From sequence record PV435126.1: a stretch of DNA of 64,000 nucleotides; one strand, given 5' to 3'. Under the pieces are notes generated by a model. It worked only from the letters and a program-made list of their open reading frames with translations. It was not told the DNA's origin and did no database searches. Position numbers and translations under genes: made by a program. This stretch comes from Escherichia phage EPFV3-03/2025. This document shows, piece after piece, positions 23,958-61,389 of the stretch. Position 1 is the first letter of the stretch, and the number at the start of each line of letters is the position of its first letter.

Positions 23958-24368
23958 ATGGTGTCTCCTTTATGTTGTTCAAATAAAATCGGAGATTCCA
24001 TAATGGAACAAATGAACGATCAAGCGTCGGTTGCGATGAACGAGCAAGAACAACCTCAAGAATTTTTCTTAGGGTTAAGCAAAGATCAGGTGTCTCTCCT
24101 GCTAGTGCTCTCTTCTTTCATGGGGAGACTTCAGGAGCTCACACAACAACCAGAGGCTGAACAATTATTTCAGGCTCTGCGCGAAGAAGAAAAATATCGT
24201 CGTTTGGATTATGCCTTAGGTTGGGTAGCTCAGCAACGAGATATGCTAATGGCCCTTTCTGGGACGACAAGTTTTGCAATGGGCCTGTTGGCTCAAGTGC
24301 AAGACAAATTAATTCAAGCAGGGTTTGCACACACAGCAAACACCAACGAAGAACAAGGAGACAAATAA
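23958..24368 (+). CDS. hypothetical protein (136 aa)
   Basis: ORF preceded by AAGGAG. Confidence 0.45.
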   Translation: MVSPLCCSNKIGDSIMEQMNDQASVAMNEQEQPQEFFLGLSKDQVSLLLVLSSFMGRLQELTQQPEAEQLFQALREEEKYRRLDYALGWVAQQRDMLMALSGTTSFAMGLLAQVQDKLIQAGFAHTANTNEEQGDK

Positions 24369-25594
24369 TGAGCGTTATTCAACAATTTGCCAACCCGATG
24401 AATCCGCGTGAAACTGTTTTACTGGCTCACGGTATGATTAAACGTGTCAGCATCAAACCTATCAAAGGTGCTGATCCTACAACAGGTATTAAAACCACTG
24501 TGTGGCAAGGTAAGAAAATCGAGTCCAGTCACACCATCTCTTTACTGATTTCTGAACTGGATTCTTCTGATAACCTACTTCAAGGTGGTGAAGAAGTTTG
24601 GATCAGCATGGGTGATAAATTGCTCAAACCAGGTCATCAAGATTCCGTCTCTGTTAAAATTGATGACAAGTGGGAAACAGTAACGCCGGGATGGATCGTA
24701 AATATCCCTTTAAAGGCAAATGAGCATAACGGTAAGACCTACTACAAAGGCTCATTGGCTAAAATGGTTAAGCTGGGGGCAGGAGAGGCTCCAGCAGCAC
24801 CACAGCAACAAAAACAGCAACAAGGCACACAATCACAAGGCCAGAAGCAGAAACCTCAGCAGAATGCCAATCAGGACGTTTTACGCATCTATGGTGATGT
24901 GACTCAGATTGTTGGCAATGTGGTTACTGTCAATGACCACAAGATCGGTGAAGGTGCTATGGTTGTCTCCGATGAGCAGCTTAAAGACCTGATAGTTGGC
25001 GGTCGTGTTGCAGCTATTGTTGACAAAGACACCGGGAATATTATCAGCGGCTTTAAGGCCTACCCACCTAAAGCAGAGAACGGCACTCAAGGTTCTGGTG
25101 GCAAGCGTAAATCCTCTTACGACCCTATTGGTGTAGAGACGGGGCACAGCATCAATGCGTTGCAAATCATCCTAGATCGCGGATTCAAGGTTGACAGCCC
25201 TTTAGATGTGGCTAAAACATTGCACGTGGTCACCATCGAGCTTAAGAAAGAGTACGCTCAAGCCACCAACCGGACCGAAGATGAAGTAGGTGCCAGTGTT
25301 GGTAACGCGGTATTGAACGCTTGTCGCCGTATTGACAAGAAAACGAAAGTTGATGATTTTGCAGCAGCAATTACTGCAGAGGCAAAAGATGTCTTGACTA
25401 ATCTTGCTGAACCGTTGTATGATTGGATCAAGAACGGTGCTGGAGCCACTGACCATCAAGAGCCTCAAGCTGCCAAACAGGAAGGCGCTCCACAGCAAAA
25501 CACTGTAGACGCCCCTCCTGTAGATGATGACGGAGATGACCCGATGGATCAGAATCCAGCACAGTATGACTTCTGTGATGACATACCTTTTTAA
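24368..25594 (+). CDS. SSB-like protein with canonical SSB C-terminal tip (408 aa)
   Basis: Ends ...YDFCDDIPF (bacterial SSB-Ct DDIPF motif); Gln-rich linker; start at ATG 24368 after AAGGAG; N-terminal fold not verified. Confidence 0.6.
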   Translation: MSVIQQFANPMNPRETVLLAHGMIKRVSIKPIKGADPTTGIKTTVWQGKKIESSHTISLLISELDSSDNLLQGGEEVWISMGDKLLKPGHQDSVSVKIDDKWETVTPGWIVNIPLKANEHNGKTYYKGSLAKMVKLGAGEAPAAPQQQKQQQGTQSQGQKQKPQQNANQDVLRIYGDVTQIVGNVVTVNDHKIGEGAMVVSDEQLKDLIVGGRVAAIVDKDTGNIISGFKAYPPKAENGTQGSGGKRKSSYDPIGVETGHSINALQIILDRGFKVDSPLDVAKTLHVVTIELKKEYAQATNRTEDEVGASVGNAVLNACRRIDKKTKVDDFAAAITAEAKDVLTNLAEPLYDWIKNGAGATDHQEPQAAKQEGAPQQNTVDAPPVDDDGDDPMDQNPAQYDFCDDIPF

Positions 25595-25611
25595 CATCTA
25601 GTTAACATAGC

Positions 25612-25637
25612 CCTGCCCGAAAGGGTGGGGCATTTTT
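25612..25637 (+). terminator. rho-independent terminator (copy 2 of duplicated hairpin)
   Basis: CCTGCCC-GAAA-GGGTGGG stem-loop then GCATTTTT; identical hairpin to 14210. Confidence 0.65.
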
Positions 25638-25656: not shown

Positions 25657-26073
25657 ATGACACTAGAAGATATCATTGTTAAACCTGAGAACTATGACCA
25701 ATACAATCTATCAACTCAATCTGTAGATCTTGGATGCGCCACTGTCAGTGCGTGGCTGGTTAACGGAAAAGAGCTGGATAAATGCTTAGAAGCTCACATG
25801 ACTGTTAACAAGTTCCTGGATGAAAATACTCACTGGCTGGAAGGTGCAGGTGTATACGCTTCGTGGCTGGAGAGCATGGGATTTGACTACCAGTCTGAAG
25901 AAGGGTGGTGGAGCTATTTAGCTATCTGTCCAGAGACGTTGAAATGCTTCATGAAATATTCTGAAGATTTGGAGTACCGGGCGGTGGTTGATAGTGCTAT
26001 TGCCCGTTATAGCCGCAAACCTTTTTCCCACGACATTAAAACTGTGGAAGAATTTGTTGAAGTTTTCTGTTGA
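25657..26073 (+). CDS. hypothetical protein (138 aa)
   Basis: ORF preceded by AAGGAG. Confidence 0.5.
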   Translation: MTLEDIIVKPENYDQYNLSTQSVDLGCATVSAWLVNGKELDKCLEAHMTVNKFLDENTHWLEGAGVYASWLESMGFDYQSEEGWWSYLAICPETLKCFMKYSEDLEYRAVVDSAIARYSRKPFSHDIKTVEEFVEVFC

Positions 26074-26098
26074 CACAGGTTGGAAGGTGTGCAATTAT
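26070..26098 (+). promoter_or_regulatory. possible sigma70-type promoter
   Basis: -35 TTGACA 26070-26075; weak -10 AATTAT 26093-26098. Confidence 0.3.
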
Positions 26099-26169: not shown

Positions 26170-26367
26170 ATGATTTATCGAATCCGTGTAAGAGAAGATG
26201 CACCAGGCTGTTACTTTGACTGGCGTGGGTGGTGGTTTCTCCACCCGATGGATGGACTCACAGATAGAATGCTGGATGCTGCCCTTTATACAGATACAGA
26301 CATAGAATATAATCTCTATCTGAAGGACGGTATAGATAACGGTCTATTTGAAGCAATTCCTGTGTAA
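26170..26367 (+). CDS. hypothetical protein (65 aa)
   Basis: ORF preceded by AGGAGG. Confidence 0.4.
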   Translation: MIYRIRVREDAPGCYFDWRGWWFLHPMDGLTDRMLDAALYTDTDIEYNLYLKDGIDNGLFEAIPV

Positions 26368-26435: not shown

Positions 26436-26861
26436 ATGACCTATGAAATGCCAAAACTGATTCGTGATGATGCCCAAAACGCTCACACCATTATTATGGG
26501 CAAACGCATGGATATTATTTGTCATAAAGATTTCTGGGAAGGAAGTTACTTCACAGAGTATTTTGGTAAACTGGACAATGGTCTGCTGATCCAGTTCTAC
26601 ACCGATGCGGAAAACAACATTCACTGGGAGTTCGAAACTGAAGATATTCATAAACTTTTCACCTTCCTCGGTATTAAGGTTGAGGCCAAGTTTGAAGAAG
26701 GCGAGTGCGACGATTGTGGATTCTACGAGGTAACAGATTTCTATCTCCCAAGTGGTGAGAACCTTTACTATGAAAGCCACTTCGGCAACTCAAATATGCC
26801 ACAAGGTTGGGATGAGTTTTTTGAAATTGCGGAAGAGGAGCTGGCATACCGTGATTATTGA
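26436..26861 (+). CDS. hypothetical protein (141 aa)
   Basis: ORF whose stop overlaps the start of the macro-domain gene. Confidence 0.5.
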   Translation: MTYEMPKLIRDDAQNAHTIIMGKRMDIICHKDFWEGSYFTEYFGKLDNGLLIQFYTDAENNIHWEFETEDIHKLFTFLGIKVEAKFEEGECDDCGFYEVTDFYLPSGENLYYESHFGNSNMPQGWDEFFEIAEEELAYRDY

Positions 26862-27309
26862 TACTGTAGAGGGAGATTTAATCTCCCTTTTTAAGAGCGG
26901 TGCTGGTCACCTGATCCACGGTTGTAACTGCTTCCACACAATGGGCAAGGGGATAGCAAAACAGATTGCCCGTGAGTTCCCTCAAGCATTGGCAGCTGAC
27001 AAAGAGACCAGACACGGTTGCCTAAGTAAACTGGGTGCGTTCTCCCGATGGGAGCACTTATCTCCGAGAGGTATTGTCTACGGAATCAATCTGTATACTC
27101 AGTTCTACCCAGGACCTAATGCTGAATATTTCTCAATCCTGAAAGGCTTTGAGCTAGTCAATGAGGTATTCAGTGGATCGACTTTACCATTCTACATCCC
27201 TAAGATCGGGTGCGGCATAGGCGGTTTGAAGTGGGAGCACGTAGAGGACGTTATTAACCTTGCCACTTTTGATATGAATATTATCGTGGTGGAGTACAAA
27301 AAGTGTTGA
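26851..27309 (+). CDS. macro-domain (ADP-ribose binding/processing) protein (152 aa)
   Basis: HGCNCFHTMGKGIAKQI and IPKIGCGIGGLKWE resemble the two glycine-rich macro-domain motifs; GTG start 26851 after GAAGAGGAG. Confidence 0.55.
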   Translation: MIIDTVEGDLISLFKSGAGHLIHGCNCFHTMGKGIAKQIAREFPQALAADKETRHGCLSKLGAFSRWEHLSPRGIVYGINLYTQFYPGPNAEYFSILKGFELVNEVFSGSTLPFYIPKIGCGIGGLKWEHVEDVINLATFDMNIIVVEYKKC

Positions 27310-27334
27310 CAGCGGGTTTTTGAGATGGTATAGT
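27306..27334 (+). promoter_or_regulatory. sigma70-type promoter
   Basis: -35 TTGACA 27306-27311, 17-bp spacer, -10 TATAGT 27329-27334. Confidence 0.5.
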
Positions 27335-27362: not shown

Positions 27363-27533
27363 ATGGAGACTAAAATCTTAATTCTGGCTGTGATAGATAC
27401 AACCGAAGGGGCTGTGTTCGAATCTGCAGGAGGGTATTTCTACCTACCCTACGGAAAAAGAACTGCTGAACCAGGTAGAGATTCAATCATCAAAGTGTTC
27501 CCGTGTGCTTTCTGGCTGGAGATTTTGGTATAA
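27363..27533 (+). CDS. hypothetical small protein (56 aa)
   Basis: ORF below ORF-track cutoff, downstream of promoter 27306 with GAGAGGGAG upstream. Confidence 0.3.
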   Translation: METKILILAVIDTTEGAVFESAGGYFYLPYGKRTAEPGRDSIIKVFPCAFWLEILV

Positions 27534-27559
27534 GATTGCAGAGGATTTGGGAGAGAATT

Positions 27560-27754
27560 ATGAGAAACAAGAGAGAGCTTTACTCTGGCGAGTGGATAAA
27601 CGATCAACAGGTTGGAGAGGTAACCTGCTTCCGGTGTTTTACTCGGTACAATCTTAAAACTGCACCAAAAAGTGTTCCAAAGACTGATGGTTATTACATA
27701 AAAGAGCCTCATTGCCCGAAATGTAAATGCCGAGTATACTGGAGTAACCTGTAA
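27560..27754 (+). CDS. hypothetical zinc-ribbon protein (64 aa)
   Basis: CFRC...CPKCKC cysteine pairs; start at ATG 27560. Confidence 0.45.
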   Translation: MRNKRELYSGEWINDQQVGEVTCFRCFTRYNLKTAPKSVPKTDGYYIKEPHCPKCKCRVYWSNL

Positions 27755-27758
27755 AAGA

Positions 27759-27786
27759 TTGACATCTGAAAACTACAGTGTATAAT
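27759..27786 (+). promoter_or_regulatory. sigma70-type promoter (consensus)
   Basis: -35 TTGACA 27759-27764, 16-bp spacer, -10 TATAAT 27781-27786. Confidence 0.6.
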
Positions 27787-28618: not shown

Positions 28619-28805
28619 GCTTAAATCTGCATGGAACATTGCTGTAGGTGATGAGATCCGCATTCCAGGTGGTAAAACTATTATGAAAATATCTCGTATC
28701 GAGTACGAAGGTGACCGTGTATTCCACATCTTTGCAGAAGATGGTCGAGAAATTTATATACAGGCAGGCTCACACATCTATATTCGTAAATGGGATGACA
28801 AATGA
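28605..28805 (+). CDS. hypothetical protein (66 aa)
   Basis: ORF overlapping neighbours at both ends. Confidence 0.4.
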   Translation: MPMFKLKSAWNIAVGDEIRIPGGKTIMKISRIEYEGDRVFHIFAEDGREIYIQAGSHIYIRKWDDK

Positions 28806-29131
28806 CAGAGATCATCATTTCAACTGCAGGATATGTATTCCTGACAATCATTGCGCTGATCATCTTGGTGGTGGTGTATGGATTTGTTATCCTGCCTATT
28901 CTTGAGACATTTAGTTTGTGTCGGTGTTGGAGAAAGGCTTACGGACCACAGCCGTGGAGAGACTGGCCCCACCTGTTACGCATAGCGTTCTCTTATGCCT
29001 ATGATCACTCCAGTAGTGCATGCATAACCGGGTATCACGCCCACAACTGGAACTGGGAAGGGCTGGGGAGATGGAGTGTTATAAAAACTATACCTCTACG
29101 CATGTACAAGCCTAAAAACAAAGATAGTTGA
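28802..29131 (+). CDS. hypothetical membrane protein (109 aa)
   Basis: N-terminal hydrophobic stretch YVFLTIIALIILVVVYGFVILPIL. Confidence 0.45.
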   Translation: MTEIIISTAGYVFLTIIALIILVVVYGFVILPILETFSLCRCWRKAYGPQPWRDWPHLLRIAFSYAYDHSSSACITGYHAHNWNWEGLGRWSVIKTIPLRMYKPKNKDS

Positions 29132-29134
29132 TAC

Positions 29135-29431
29135 TTGAAAATCCCTGGCACATCAAGTATAAGGGGGATTTCTAAAATGGATTTCCTCCTTTTGATATTT
29201 TACCTAGCCGGATATTTTAAAATTCCTAGAAAATCAGAAAATGGATCGAAAACTAAAATGGATTTTTTCAAGACAGGCACGATAAGCTGCGCTGCTCATT
29301 CTATCATTCGCACCGTACTCCAAATCACCGTTCCAGATTTTCCGCACACACTCTCGCCCTTCTACCAGAACTTTCCCAACTTACCTTCGGCCTTTTATGA
29401 CAATAAGTTAATTATTATCAGTAAGTTTTGA
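29135..29431 (+). CDS. hypothetical protein (98 aa), doubtful
   Basis: ORF-track ORF with non-ATG start; low-complexity; adjacent to repeat region. Confidence 0.25.
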   Translation: MKIPGTSSIRGISKMDFLLLIFYLAGYFKIPRKSENGSKTKMDFFKTGTISCAAHSIIRTVLQITVPDFPHTLSPFYQNFPNLPSAFYDNKLIIISKF

Positions 29432-29444
29432 TACATCTCTCTCA

Positions 29445-29625
29445 GTACTCGATCTGTTTTTCATTTCAAAGATTGGATTTTCTGAAAAATTTTCTCGATA
29501 AATTTTTCGGTACTCGATCTGTTTTTCGTTTTCTGAATCAGATTTTCTGGAAATCGTTCCGGCGCTCGACCTGAAATTTTTGGGGACGAAATCGATTTTT
29601 CGTTTTCAGAAACGGATTTTTAAAA
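29445..29625. repeat. AT-rich degenerate tandem repeats (about 65-bp unit, 3-4 copies)
   Basis: Units beginning gtactcgatctgtttttc at 29445 and 29510, degenerate copies near 29565 and 29590. Confidence 0.6.
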
Positions 29626-29734
29626 TTTCTATATGGGAATATTTTAGGAGGTATTATTTTATATAGAATTGTCACGGTAGGTAATTAGCATGCTAACTAA
29701 ATTTATGAAATGCGAAAAGTTCTCATTTAGAATT

Positions 29735-29753
29735 TTGAATGATAATCATTCTC
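29735..29753. promoter_or_regulatory. Fur-box-like site 1
   Basis: ttgaatgataatcattctc matches 15/19 of Fur consensus GATAATGATAATCATTATC. Confidence 0.3.
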
Positions 29754-29985
29754 GTTTGCAGAATAACGGGCACCCCCGGTGATTGTCTCCCGGCCCCTAC
29801 TGCCCCGGCTTGTTATTATAGTATCACACAGGACAAAGAAAGCAAGAAGTTTTTGCATAAATTTTTAGACGATAATGATAATCGTTCTCATTTCATGCAG
29901 CGCCCATCCCCGGTGGTTGTCTCCCCCGTCACCGGTGCCTGCCGTCCTTTCGATATGTATATTGTGCCACCTGGCGGGGCCGCTG
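29738..29985. repeat. two copies of an about 110-bp direct repeat (29738-29845 and 29871-29985)
   Basis: Each copy: gataatc(a/g)ttctc..gcag..ccccggtg(a/g)ttgtctccc..tat(t)at..ac. Confidence 0.6.
29871..29889. promoter_or_regulatory. Fur-box-like site 2
   Basis: gataatgataatcgttctc matches 17/19 of Fur consensus; overlaps a possible -10 downstream of TTGCAT 29854-29859. Confidence 0.35.
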
Positions 29986-30102
29986 TCAACACTTTTCAAA
30001 AAAAAAAATTCTAACCTGATGCGCTAACCGCTGCAACCTGGCGGGGCCAGCCTGGTGGGCCTACGCTATAGGATAGGCAACAATTGAAGAGGAGGTACAA
30101 AA

Positions 30103-30279
30103 ATGAAAGGTAATAGGATCCCCCTGGAAAATGTAGCTATTAATAACGCTGAGGCTATCGCCCTGGTTGAAAAGGCTATGGCGGGAGCGTTGGAACATAA
30201 AGAAGAGTACGAAAAAATGATGGTCAACCTAGCAGGGGCGGCGGCTGGAGAATTCTACCCAAAAAATAATTTTAACTAG
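30103..30279 (+). CDS. hypothetical small protein (58 aa)
   Basis: ORF below track cutoff; GAAGAGGAGG upstream of ATG 30103. Confidence 0.4.
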   Translation: MKGNRIPLENVAINNAEAIALVEKAMAGALEHKEEYEKMMVNLAGAAAGEFYPKNNFN

Positions 30280-60228: not shown

Positions 60229-61389
60229 ACCCATGCTTGTTACTTTGCCGTCTGTTGAACCTGTCACTTTACGATTCAGCGGAACAGAAACAAAGTCAGG
60301 ATAAATCCGCTCTGCAGAACATTCTAGAGCCAATCGTTTCAAATCGTAGTTAGGATCCCCAGGGTTCATGTTGACACCCTCCTCTAAGAAGAACAGCACT
60401 TTAGGGAACACAGGTGTGATCCGTTCTTCACCAAGACCCATTTTGTGAACTTTCAAGTAGTTTTTGGTAATCATTCTACCAAAGACCGAGGTATCTAGCC
60501 CTAAACTTAATGTGATGAATGGAGTTTGCCCGTTGACAGAAGTTAACGTATTGATTTGGTAGAGCAAAGTTTGCATACTATCAAACACGTCTTTATCTGT
60601 CATTTGCATTGCAACAGTCTCAGCATCTGGCAACCAATGTTCCTGACAAAATTTAAGGTTCTTCTCGTAGGTTGCTTCAGCATACTGTGCCAGATAATGA
60701 TCAATATGGCTCATGGTCTGACCACCATATTGAGCACTAGCTACTGCACTAGAGATTTGGCTAAGGATTGTTGTTGCAACCCCTATTGACTTCGGCTTAC
60801 TGACATGGGCGTTGCCAATGTTGAATCCGTTTTCCAGCATATCCGGATAATTTACCAAACAACAGTTTGTTAACGGACTGATCAGGTAGTCAAGATCATG
60901 CACATGGATGAAGCCTTTGTTGTGCTCTTCGGAGACACGGTCTGGCAGGATCTGTGTTGATGCAAGATGTTTGCTAAGGATTCCTGCAAGCAGGTCACGA
61001 TGAGTGTGTACATGATTAGTAGGCTTATTTGCGTTTTCTTTTGTAAATTCATCACAAGTACGATCCAAGAAGCCGCTAATATCTGCAAGCAGTTTTCCAC
61101 CTGCCTCTCTGTTATTATCCCTTGTCTGTCTATACTGGATGTATTCTCTGGCTGCACATTTTAAACCCATATCCATAAGAGCATCTTCAACAAGGATATG
61201 GATATTTTTTACAGAGATCGTGCACTGGTCAGTTGGCAGATTGTTGGCAACAACTTCATTAACCGCACAGGCAATCCGGTAAGCTTCTTCTTCAGTATGT
61301 CCAGACTCAAGTAAGGCGGACTCTGCCGCCTTGATCACCTTAATTCCGTTATAAAACTCTTCTCTACCGTCCCGTTTTACAACTTTCAC
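60229..61389 (-). CDS. nrdD: anaerobic ribonucleoside-triphosphate reductase NrdD, exon 1
   Basis: N-terminal ATP-cone-like MKVVKRDGREEFYNGIKV; ends ...KVTSMG at the splice site. Confidence 0.85.

What the first reader, a model, noticed from the sequence alone, without database searches (positions are those of the whole stretch)
26436..27309. Macro-domain protein translationally coupled to an unknown 141-aa protein
ORF 26851-27309 has two glycine-rich motifs typical of macro domains (ADP-ribose binding or hydrolysis). Its GTG start overlaps the stop of 26436-26861. A phage macro domain could reverse host ADP-ribosylation, or degrade or sequester ADP-ribose-derived signals used by host defence systems.
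Basis: partly seen in the sequence, partly recalled or inferred. Interest (0 to 1): 0.55.

Follow-up and report, generated by a model that had tools for sequence, protein, structure and literature searches.

The report
Phage anti-DarT macrodomain (AdfM-like) gene
This is a stand-alone ADP-ribose-removing (macrodomain) gene of an rV5-like E. coli phage, a 40%-identical relative of phage T4's Tk.4/AdfM, which protects T4 from the DarTG2 defence system; the overlapping upstream gene is a rare acidic protein of unknown role that is not a conserved partner.

Summary
Both ORFs exist as described, in a Vequintavirus (rV5-like) genome. ORF B (26851-27309, 152 aa) is a confident macrodomain: Pfam Macro above threshold, AF2 pLDDT 96.7, best PDB neighbours TARG1/Poa1p/DarG/SCO6735. 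Public records already label it 'macro domain protein' or 'phosphatase'. It belongs to a family found in 2,719 of 50,697 phage records. Its nearest characterised relative is T4 Tk.4 (AdfM; 40% identity over the full length), whose knockout sensitises T4 to DarTG2. The active site carries Gln84 where DarG and TARG1 have the catalytic Lys. SCO6735, which cleaves thymidine-ADP-ribose on DNA, has the same Gln, and so does T4 Tk.4. The rival function is the Poa1p-like ADPR-1''-phosphatase Adpp of NARP1 operons. It is less likely: that protein is a more distant relative, and the phage has no Adps or Namat gene. The 11-nt start/stop overlap with ORF A is real but ordinary (8 of 24 neighbouring pairs overlap). 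ORF A is very acidic (pI 4.3) and very rare, with no fold match. Other phages place it elsewhere or beside unrelated genes, so a functional pairing is not supported. Verdict: a new member of a known kind, of modest interest.

The parts
26851..27309 (+). Macrodomain gene (152 aa, GTG start), a Tk.4/AdfM-like orphan DarG2-type macrodomain
   Evidence: Pfam PF01661 28.3 bits against a cut-off of 22; phrog_335 4.8e-59. AF2 pLDDT 96.7, pTM 0.91. Foldseek PDB top hits are TARG1, Poa1p and DarG. 40% identity and 119 bits to RB33/T4 Tk.4.
26436..26861 (+). ORF A, 141 aa, very acidic protein of unknown function (phrog_8157)
26851..26861 (+). 11-nt overlap between the macro GTG start and the ORF A stop (TGA 26859-26861)
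   Evidence: Read directly from the sequence. In L003 the same junction is a 4-nt ATGA overlap.
26836..26840 (+). AGGAG Shine-Dalgarno-like element, 10 nt upstream of the GTG
   Evidence: Read directly from the sequence; GAAGAGGAG is conserved in YP-6 and L002.
26917..26931 (+). HGCNC motif (His23, Asn26); Asn26 corresponds to DarG N22 and SCO6735 N27, His23 to SCO6735 H24
   Evidence: HG[CA]NC is present in 81 of 81 loci; alignments to 5M3I, 5E3B and 2FG1.
26941..26952 (+). MGKG, ADP-ribose-binding loop 1
27088..27102 (+). NLYTQ motif; Gln84 occupies the position of DarG K80, TARG1 K84 and SCO6735 Q85
   Evidence: Q is invariant in the 83-sequence alignment A2 and in 80 of 81 loci. Q85A/E inactivates SCO6735 (PMC9411070).
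27205..27228 (+). IGCGIGGL, ADP-ribose-binding loop 2 (diphosphate loop); no Asp equivalent to TARG1 D125
26070..26098 (+). Sigma-70-like promoter (TTGACA-17-AATTAT with TG) upstream of the 65-aa ORF; possible start of the ORF65-ORF A-macro unit
   Evidence: Consensus scan only.
27306..27334 (+). Strong sigma-70-like promoter (TTGACA-17-TATAGT, 11 of 12, TG) at the macro stop codon; starts the next unit
   Evidence: Consensus scan only.
25610..25631 (+). Terminator-like hairpin (9 bp, 7 GC, T-run) that closes the upstream unit
   Evidence: Consensus scan only.

Best explanation
ORF B is a stand-alone early accessory gene for a macrodomain ADP-ribosyl glycohydrolase of the TARG1/DarG/SCO6735 (ALC1-like) class. 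It falls in the same phage clade as T4 Tk.4 (AdfM). The most likely mechanism runs as follows. When a DarTG2-type toxin-antitoxin defence is triggered, DarT2 ADP-ribosylates thymidines in single-stranded phage DNA and blocks replication. The phage macrodomain binds the ADP-ribose through its two glycine loops and Asn26. It then hydrolyses the thymidine-ribose bond and restores replicable DNA, acting as an orphan 'antitoxin' that lacks DarG's DarT-binding domain. Catalysis would follow the SCO6735 variant: Gln84 positions the substrate and an activated water, in place of the nucleophilic lysine of DarG and TARG1. Shown here: the fold, class membership, conserved active-site residues, homology to Tk.4, and absence of NARP1 genes. 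Taken from the literature: Tk.4 is needed for DarTG2 resistance in T4, and SCO6735 (Gln type) cleaves dT-ADPr. Inferred: that the Vequintavirus protein has this activity and this role. ORF A is an unrelated, independently mobile acidic accessory gene whose stop happens to overlap the macro start. Any translational coupling affects expression only.
For: Macro fold: Pfam above the gathering score; AF2 pLDDT 96.7; Foldseek PDB top hits TARG1, Poa1p, DarG, BT1257 and SCO6735 with TM 0.72-0.78. Profile search of PDB sequences: Mtb DarG 3.4e-17, SCO6735 2.8e-16. PADLOC DarG model 1.1e-13, macro part only. Full-length 40% identity and 119 bits to RB33 Tk.4, which differs from T4 Tk.4 at two residues. 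T4 tk.4 knockout is sensitive to DarTG2 (preprint 10.1101/2025.11.20.689424). In the NJ tree the window clade is sister to the tk/vs-context T4-like clade, and the NARP1-embedded Adpp-like protein is basal. Gln84, His23 and Asn26 are conserved in 80-81 of 81 loci and shared with SCO6735, where Q85A/E is inactive and the enzyme cleaves dT-ADPr DNA and protects against DarT. No Adps or Namat homologue at E<=1 in the window or in 134.7 kb of a 97.7%-identical relative (over the 2.4-kb query). The gene lies in a region of small same-strand genes with strong sigma-70-like promoters.
Against: No experiment exists on the Vequintavirus protein. The HIDEN-SEQ authors built a Bas54 (Vequintavirus) library but do not report a DarTG2 screen with it. 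T4 AdfM itself is supported by genetics and structural similarity only, with no biochemistry. The same sequence family includes Adpp-like ADPR-1''-phosphatases at 35% identity, and many macrodomains show several activities in vitro. Gln84 does not discriminate, because the Adpp-like protein also has Gln. The tree is a distance tree without bootstrap support. At 40% identity, substrate specificity may differ. The protein is not basic (pI 6.6), whereas a positively charged DNA channel was noted for DarG and SCO6735. Surface electrostatics were not computed here.
Confidence: 0.6

Rival explanations
1. It is an ADPR-1''-phosphate phosphatase (Poa1p/Adpp-like). It would dephosphorylate the ADPR-1P made by RES-domain NADase defences (aRES), or made as a by-product of RNA repair.
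For: PHROG 335 and T4 Tk.4 are annotated 'phosphatase / A1pp motif'. Poa1p is among the top sequence and fold hits. A homologue at 35% identity (Vibrio phage Rocket24 gp171) sits between Adps-like and Namat-like genes, which is the arrangement of the Adpp enzyme characterised in Vibrio phage Gary.
Against: Adpp is useful because it feeds NARP1, and no Adps or Namat homologue exists in the window or in 134.7 kb of a near-identical genome. The window protein scores higher with Tk.4 (119 bits) than with the Adpp-like protein (69 bits). It also lacks that protein's 7-residue insertion and has T83/Q38 rather than G/L. In the tree it groups with the tk.4 clade.
Confidence: 0.15
2. It removes mono-ADP-ribose from proteins or RNA. 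The targets could be host ADP-ribosyltransferase defences or toxins other than DarT2 (for example mRNA-modifying CmdT). Alternatively it could balance a phage-encoded modifier such as the Sir2-like protein encoded elsewhere in Vequintavirus genomes.
For: TARG1 and SCO6735 also hydrolyse Glu/Asp-linked protein ADP-ribose. A Sir2-like gene, RNA ligases and a nucleotide pyrophosphohydrolase are annotated in the relative genome. Sirtuin-macro pairings are known in phages (PMC9503650).
Against: The Sir2-like gene is about 50 kb away and is not linked to this gene. No ADP-ribosyltransferase is nearby. The nearest functionally tested relative, T4 Tk.4, was the single significant hit for DarTG2.
Confidence: 0.12
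3. ORF A and the macrodomain form a two-part counter-defence unit, a 'split DarG'. The acidic ORF A would bind and block DarT, as DarG's C-terminal domain, AdfA or AdfB do, while the macrodomain erases the modification. The overlap would ensure that both are made together.
For: The start/stop overlap is conserved where the genes are adjacent (11 nt, or ATGA in L003). ORF A is extremely acidic (pI 4.3, charge -21), like nucleic-acid mimics. A natural deletion removes both genes together.
Against: ORF A is absent next to nearly all macro homologues. In L004 and L005 it lies 1.2-1.5 kb downstream of the macro gene, next to the 65-aa gene homologue. Distant homologues neighbour a Dam methylase or a QueC-like gene. 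There is no fold similarity to DarG or any inhibitor. In T4, tk.4 alone was the DarTG2 hit. Overlaps are common in this region (8 of 24 pairs).
Confidence: 0.07
4. It is a non-catalytic binder or sponge, or a hydrolase, for ADP-ribose-derived immune signals (Thoeris gcADPR or His-ADPR).
For: Macro domains bind ADPr derivatives, and ThsA macro domains sense His-ADPR. Phage macro domains have been predicted to target soluble ADPr derivatives (PMC9503650).
Against: The residues needed for catalysis in SCO6735 (His, Asn, Gln) are strictly conserved, which argues for an enzyme. No known Tad-type sponge has this fold class. No experimental precedent exists for this clade.
Confidence: 0.04

Closest known systems
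T4 Tk.4 = AdfM (anti-DarT factor, macrodomain; HIDEN-SEQ preprint 10.1101/2025.11.20.689424)
   Same: Same length class (155 vs 152 aa). 40% identity over the full length without large gaps. Shared HGCNCFHTMG, NLYTQFxPGPNxEY and IG[AC]GIG motifs, including the Gln at the catalytic position. Both are stand-alone small genes in accessory regions.
   Different: Different phage family (Vequintavirus vs Straboviridae) and different neighbours (ORF A and small ORFs vs vs/tk.3). There is no experimental test of the Vequintavirus protein. Loop 2 reads GIGGL here and GIGKG in T4.
Streptomyces coelicolor SCO6735 (PDB 5E3B) and Bacteroides BT1257 (2FG1/2AFC)
   Same: ALC1-like macrodomain with His-x-x-Asn and with Gln at the DarG-K80/TARG1-K84 position. 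SCO6735 cleaves thymidine-linked ADPr-DNA and protects from DarT, and Q85A/E is inactive.
   Different: About 22% identity. SCO6735 and BT1257 have a 5-6-residue insertion after the Gln, and Gly rather than Thr before it. They are cellular proteins, not phage proteins.
DarG antitoxin macrodomain (Mtb 5M3I, T. aquaticus 5M31/5M3E) and PhiKZ gp104 AdfM (PMC13309987)
   Same: Best PDB sequence hit. Same fold, the same Asn (N22) and the same glycine loops. Contact residues Q34 and T79 are conserved as Q38 and T83. PhiKZ AdfM is a phage orphan macrodomain shown biochemically to erase DarT2 marks.
   Different: The catalytic Lys (K80, or K78 in PhiKZ) is replaced by Gln. There is no C-terminal DarT-binding domain and no adjacent DarT. 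NCBIfam DarG scores 47 bits against a cut-off of 250. Identity to PhiKZ gp104 is only 23% at 30 bits.
Adpp, the NARP1-associated ADPR-1''-phosphate phosphatase (Vibrio phage Gary; 10.64898/2026.01.28.702374), and yeast Poa1p
   Same: Same broad sequence family: 35% identity to the Adpp-like Rocket24 gp171, which also has Gln at the same position. Poa1p is a top fold hit.
   Different: Not inside a NARP1 operon, and the phage lacks Adps and Namat. No 7-residue insertion. Different residues at positions 38 and 83. It branches apart in the tree.

Membership tests
Macro domain superfamily (Pfam PF01661) | Profile score above Pfam's gathering threshold | tested here: met
   28.3 bits against a cut-off of 22.
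Macro domain superfamily (Pfam PF01661) | Three-layer alpha/beta/alpha macro fold with a central mixed sheet | tested here: met
   AF2 pLDDT 96.7, pTM 0.91. 166 PDB matches at E<=0.001, nearly all of those listed being macrodomains; top TM 0.78.
Macro domain superfamily (Pfam PF01661) | Two glycine-rich ADP-ribose-binding loops | tested here: met
   MGKG (31-34) and IGCGIGGL (119-126) align with the loops of DarG, TARG1 and SCO6735.
Macro domain superfamily (Pfam PF01661) | Binds ADP-ribose | not testable with these tools
   Needs ITC, DSF or a co-crystal.
ALC1-like class, lysine type (TARG1/DarG) | Catalytic lysine (TARG1 K84, DarG K80) | tested here: not met
   Gln84 occupies this column; Q in 80 of 81 loci and invariant in alignment A2.
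ALC1-like class, glutamine type (SCO6735/BT1257) | Gln at the catalytic position together with His-x-x-Asn | tested here: met
   H23, N26 and Q84 align with SCO6735 H24, N27 and Q85.
DarG antitoxin (NCBIfam NF048014 equivalog; PADLOC DarG) | Full-length match including the C-terminal DarT-binding domain | tested here: not met
   47.4 bits against a cut-off of 250. Only model positions 3-139 of 338 are matched, and the protein is 152 aa.
DarG antitoxin (NCBIfam NF048014 equivalog; PADLOC DarG) | Encoded next to a DarT toxin | tested here: not met
   The upstream ORF A has no PADLOC, Pfam or NCBIfam hit. The neighbours are small phage ORFs of unknown PHROGs.
AdfM, T4 Tk.4 type | Full-length homology to T4 Tk.4, and grouping with the tk.4 clade rather than other phage macro clades | tested here: met
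   40% identity, 119 bits, E 6e-40. In the NJ tree it is sister to the tk/vs-context clade (no bootstrap).
AdfM, T4 Tk.4 type | [quoted passage not shown] | not testable with these tools
   Needs plaque assays and an oligonucleotide de-ADP-ribosylation assay.
AdfM, PhiKZ gp104 type | DarG-like FPTK motif with catalytic K78; close similarity to gp104 | tested here: not met
   23% identity, 30 bits; Gln instead of Lys (for K78).
Adpp (NARP1-AP phosphatase) | Gene embedded in, or adjacent to, an Adps-Namat (NARP1) operon | tested here: not met
   tblastn with Rocket24 Adps and Namat gives no hit at E<=1 in the window or in bases 1-134,700 of VB-EcoM-WM. The last 4.8 kb of that genome was not checked.
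Adpp (NARP1-AP phosphatase) | ADPR-1''-phosphate phosphatase activity | not testable with these tools
   Needs an LC-MS assay with purified ADPR-1P.

The most novel reading that the evidence does not exclude
The widespread Tk.4-type phage macrodomains, including this one, may be Gln-type (SCO6735-like) enzymes that erase DarT2 marks by a lysine-independent, water-activating mechanism. That would make them a mechanistically distinct lineage from the Lys-type PhiKZ AdfM and from DarG, although both carry the name AdfM. In Vequintaviruses the enzyme might also be co-expressed with a new, extremely acidic protein family (ORF A). ORF A could act as a second, stoichiometric inhibitor: a DarT binder or DNA mimic. 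Its homologues elsewhere precede DNA-modification genes (Dam, QueC-like).
Probability: 0.12. Interest if true: 0.55.

Novelty: new member of a known kind. Interest (0 to 1): 0.3.

Why it matters
If the assignment holds, rV5-like phages carry a ready-made counter to DarTG2. These phages are often proposed for biocontrol of E. coli O157 and for therapy, so the assignment helps predict host range on DarTG2-bearing strains. It also shows that about 5% of sequenced phages share a Gln-type orphan macrodomain, the same family as T4 AdfM. It further shows that the two published 'AdfM' proteins belong to different catalytic subtypes. That matters when annotating phage genomes, which now label this family 'phosphatase', and when choosing catalytic mutants. 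The finding itself is not a new system.

Tried and rejected
(1) ORF A as a conserved partner of the macro gene: rejected. tblastn of ORF A against 80 macro-containing viral loci found it adjacent only in the closest relatives, and distant homologues neighbour other genes.

(3) The longer GenBank start (ATG 26812): rejected, because it is not conserved.

(4) Using Gln84 to discriminate AdfM from Adpp: rejected, because both have Gln.

(5) NARP1 context: no Adps or Namat found. The L007 'Namat' flag was a weak 23%-identity Nampt-like hit about 850 nt away with no Adps partner.

(6) A conserved downstream partner: the PF23903 zinc-binding ORF recurs near the macro gene in 13 loci but at variable distance, and T4's Tk.3 is a different family, DUF7202.

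(7) HIDEN-SEQ supplements were searched for a Bas54 macro entry; none was found under the terms 'macro', 'phosphatase' or 'ADP-ribose'.

(8) tRNA and Rfam scans of the neighbourhood were empty.

(9) One literature search failed because a term was too short.

Full report
Observation. The window belongs to a Vequintavirus (rV5-like Escherichia coli myophage). A 2.4-kb query around the finding matches 119 phage records, the best at 98% identity (Escherichia phage YP-6, O157 typing phage 4). Both ORFs are present as described. ORF A is 26436-26861 (ATG, 141 aa). ORF B is 26851-27309 (GTG, 152 aa). The GTG lies inside the last codons of ORF A, giving an 11-nt overlap, and is preceded by AGGAG at a 10-nt spacing. 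GenBank relatives start ORF B 13 codons earlier, at an ATG equal to window 26812. That ATG is CTG in L002 and AGG in L003. The start at 26851 is conserved as GTG or ATG in L002-L006, and homologues are about 150-153 aa long. The overlap is not unusual: 8 of 24 neighbouring gene pairs in this region of YP-6 overlap.

What ORF B is. It passes Pfam's Macro threshold (28.3 bits against 22) and matches PHROG 335 'phosphatase' at 4.8e-59. An AlphaFold2 model built on an 83-sequence alignment is very confident (pLDDT 96.7, pTM 0.91). Its best Foldseek matches in the PDB are TARG1, Poa1p, the DarG macrodomains, BT1257 and SCO6735, with TM 0.72-0.78. A profile search of PDB sequences gives Mtb DarG 3.4e-17, SCO6735 2.8e-16, BT1257 3.5e-16 and TARG1 3e-15. 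The protein therefore belongs to the ALC1-like (TARG1/DarG/Poa1p) class, not the MacroD class. The PADLOC and NCBIfam DarG models match only over their N-terminal macrodomain part (49 and 47 bits; the NCBIfam cut-off is 250). This makes it an orphan macrodomain, not a DarG antitoxin.

Active site. The family alignment has invariant or nearly invariant H23, N26, the M31-G-x-G34 loop, N80-x-Y-T-Q84 and the I119-G-x-G-x-x-G125 loop. In the residue-level HMM alignments, Gln84 occupies the column of DarG K80 and TARG1 K84. SCO6735 ('NMIGQ') and BT1257 also have Gln there. K80 is the key catalytic residue of DarG (PMC5179494). SCO6735 lacks the Lys/Asp dyad and is inactivated by Q85A or Q85E. It cleaves thymidine-linked ADP-ribose on DNA and protects against DarT (PMC9411070). 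Across 81 loci the position is Q in 80 and K in one, L006.

Distribution and characterised relatives. A tblastn search finds the family in 2,719 of 50,697 phage records: T4-like, Felix O1-like, Pakpunavirus, Ackermannviridae, Vibrio phages and others. The same search finds 460 IMG/VR loci. In T4-like phages the hit is the gene next to vs. In RB33 it is annotated tk.4, and in T4 it is tk.4 (60922-61389, 'phosphatase; A1pp motif'). A 2025 preprint reports tk.4 as the single significant hit in a transposon screen of T4 on a DarTG2 host. A clean knockout becomes DarTG2-sensitive, and the gene was named adfM. The window protein is 40% identical to Tk.4 over its full length (119 bits). T4 Tk.4 has the same HGCNCFHTMG and NLYTQFxPGPN motifs, including the Gln.

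A second tested relative is Adpp, a Poa1p-like ADPR-1''-phosphate phosphatase located between Adps and Namat in extended NARP1 operons. Rocket24 gp171 has exactly that arrangement. It is 35% identical to the window protein (69 bits) and has a 7-residue insertion after the Gln. In a context-labelled neighbour-joining tree, the Vequintavirus proteins plus L006 are sister to the tk/vs-context clade that contains T4 Tk.4, and the Adpp-like protein is basal (no bootstrap). The positions equivalent to DarG contact residues Q34 and T79 are Q38 and T83 in the window protein and in the tk.4 clade. In the Adpp-like protein they are L and G. This is only suggestive, because SCO6735 also has Gly there. 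Neither Adps nor Namat has any homologue (E<=1) in the window or in 134.7 kb of the 139.5-kb relative VB-EcoM-WM. An Adpp role feeding NARP1 is therefore unsupported. The other protein named AdfM, PhiKZ gp104, was shown biochemically to erase DarT2 marks and has K78. It is only 23% identical to the window protein (30 bits) and carries the DarG-like FPTK motif. T4 Tk.4 against gp104 scores 21 bits. The two 'AdfM' proteins thus represent different subtypes of the same class.

ORF A lies directly upstream of the macro gene only in L001-L003. In L004 and L005 (macro 73-74% identical) a 39%-identical ORF A homologue lies 1.2-1.5 kb downstream of the macro gene, near the homologue of the 65-aa gene (window 26170-26367). 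There the macro gene follows two unrelated ORFs, without overlap, and precedes a DHFR-like ORF (judged by eye, not scanned). ORF A is absent from L006 and from all more distant loci. More distant ORF A homologues sit upstream of a Dam-type methyltransferase in T4-like contigs (P0102), or overlap a QueC-like gene (P0103), with no macro gene within 5 kb. ORF A is therefore an independent accessory gene. The overlap with the macro start may couple expression in this clade, but it gives no evidence of a shared function.

Context. The pair lies downstream of the replication module (helicase, primase/helicase, DNA polymerase), in a run of small same-strand genes. Consensus scans place a terminator-like hairpin at 25610-25631 and sigma-70-like promoters at 26070-26098, 27306-27334 (11 of 12) and 27759-27786 (12 of 12). 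The region has 19 promoter-like sites against 11.6 +/- 3.1 in shuffles. This fits host-polymerase-driven early accessory genes, but it is pattern matching only. A natural variant (P0017 / L094, a 135.5-kb contig) carries an ORF A::macro fusion. It arose by deletion between two 9-bp repeats, CAGTTCTAC (window 26592-26600 and 27100-27108), in otherwise syntenic surroundings. Both genes are therefore dispensable.

Verdict. The 'coupled partner' angle is not supported. The gene is already annotated as a macro domain, and its family has a genetically characterised member, T4 AdfM. The best-supported mechanism is erasure of DarT2-made thymidine ADP-ribosylation on phage DNA by a Gln-type (SCO6735-like) orphan macrodomain (confidence about 0.6). 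The main rival is ADPR-1''-phosphatase activity (about 0.15). Novelty: a new member of a known kind. The only mildly new points are the Gln-type active site shared by the whole Tk.4-like phage clade, and the rare acidic ORF A family of unknown function.

Noticed in passing
window 26812-26853: GenBank relatives (YP-6, VB-EcoM-WM) start the macro CDS at an ATG 13 codons upstream, giving 165 aa and a 50-nt overlap with ORF A. That ATG is not conserved (CTG in L002, AGG in L003). The start at 26851 is conserved as GTG or ATG, so the public annotation is probably over-extended.
   Followed up: yes
window 26592-26600 and 27100-27108; L094:2501-2866: A natural Vequintavirus contig (Logan ERR11560567, 135.5 kb) carries a 121-aa ORF A::macro fusion (P0017). 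It arose by a 508-bp deletion between two copies of CAGTTCTAC, and it removes the N-terminal half of the macrodomain. Both genes are therefore dispensable in nature.
   Followed up: yes
L006:4001-4640 (IMGVR_UViG_2974573495_000001, 164.7 kb; cf. phage vB_EcoM_PHB13): A T4-like-sized genome with tk nearby carries a macro gene 68% identical to the window's. That is much closer than ordinary tk.4 genes (about 40%), which suggests exchange between T4-like and V5-like phages. It is the only one of 81 loci with Lys instead of Gln at the catalytic position (NLYTKF).
   Followed up: partly
window 27503-27754 (or ATG 27560): This small ORF has a Pfam PF23903 'phage zinc binding domain' (1.6e-22). Homologues recur 0-1.2 kb downstream of the macro gene in 13 loci, including several T4-like phages. 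It is a loose but recurrent neighbour. T4's own Tk.3 is a different family (DUF7202).
   Followed up: partly
L090:5001-5432 and L088:514-951: Distant ORF A homologues (P0102, P0103) sit immediately upstream of, and touch or overlap, a Dam-type DNA methyltransferase gene (T4-like contigs) or a QueC-like gene. ORF A family members thus repeatedly precede DNA-modification-related genes. This may be coincidence.
   Followed up: partly
window 24368-25594: A 408-aa ORF (phrog_4477, unknown function; annotated hypothetical, and in one relative partly as 'endonuclease VII') has a Gln-rich linker and ends in ...DFCDDIPF. That resembles the acidic C-terminal tip of bacterial SSB, so it may be the phage's ssDNA-binding protein or an SSB-tail mimic.
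   Followed up: no
L085:4923-5390 (T4 tk.4) vs L093:22518-23006 (PhiKZ gp104): The two published proteins named AdfM are only marginally similar (21 bits). They differ at the catalytic position: Gln in T4 Tk.4, Lys78 in PhiKZ gp104. One name therefore covers two subtypes.
   Followed up: yes
window 27306-27334 and 27759-27786: Two near-perfect sigma-70-like promoters (11 of 12 with an extended -10 TG; 12 of 12) lie within 500 bp downstream of the macro gene. Promoter-like sites are enriched in 23.5-29.5 kb (19 against 11.6 +/- 3.1 in shuffles).
   Followed up: no
window ~28810-30105: This stretch of about 1.0-1.3 kb has no annotated CDS in relatives (YP-6, VB-EcoM-WM). ARAGORN and Rfam (gathering threshold) find nothing there. 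The window has a 109-aa ORF (28802-29131, phrog_2531) at its start.
   Followed up: partly
L086:27810-30572 (VB-EcoM-WM 112610-115372; outside the window): Vequintavirus genomes also encode a Sir2-like protein next to a nucleotide pyrophosphohydrolase and two RNA-ligase-like genes. This is another NAD/ADP-ribose-related module, about 50 kb from the macro gene.
   Followed up: no
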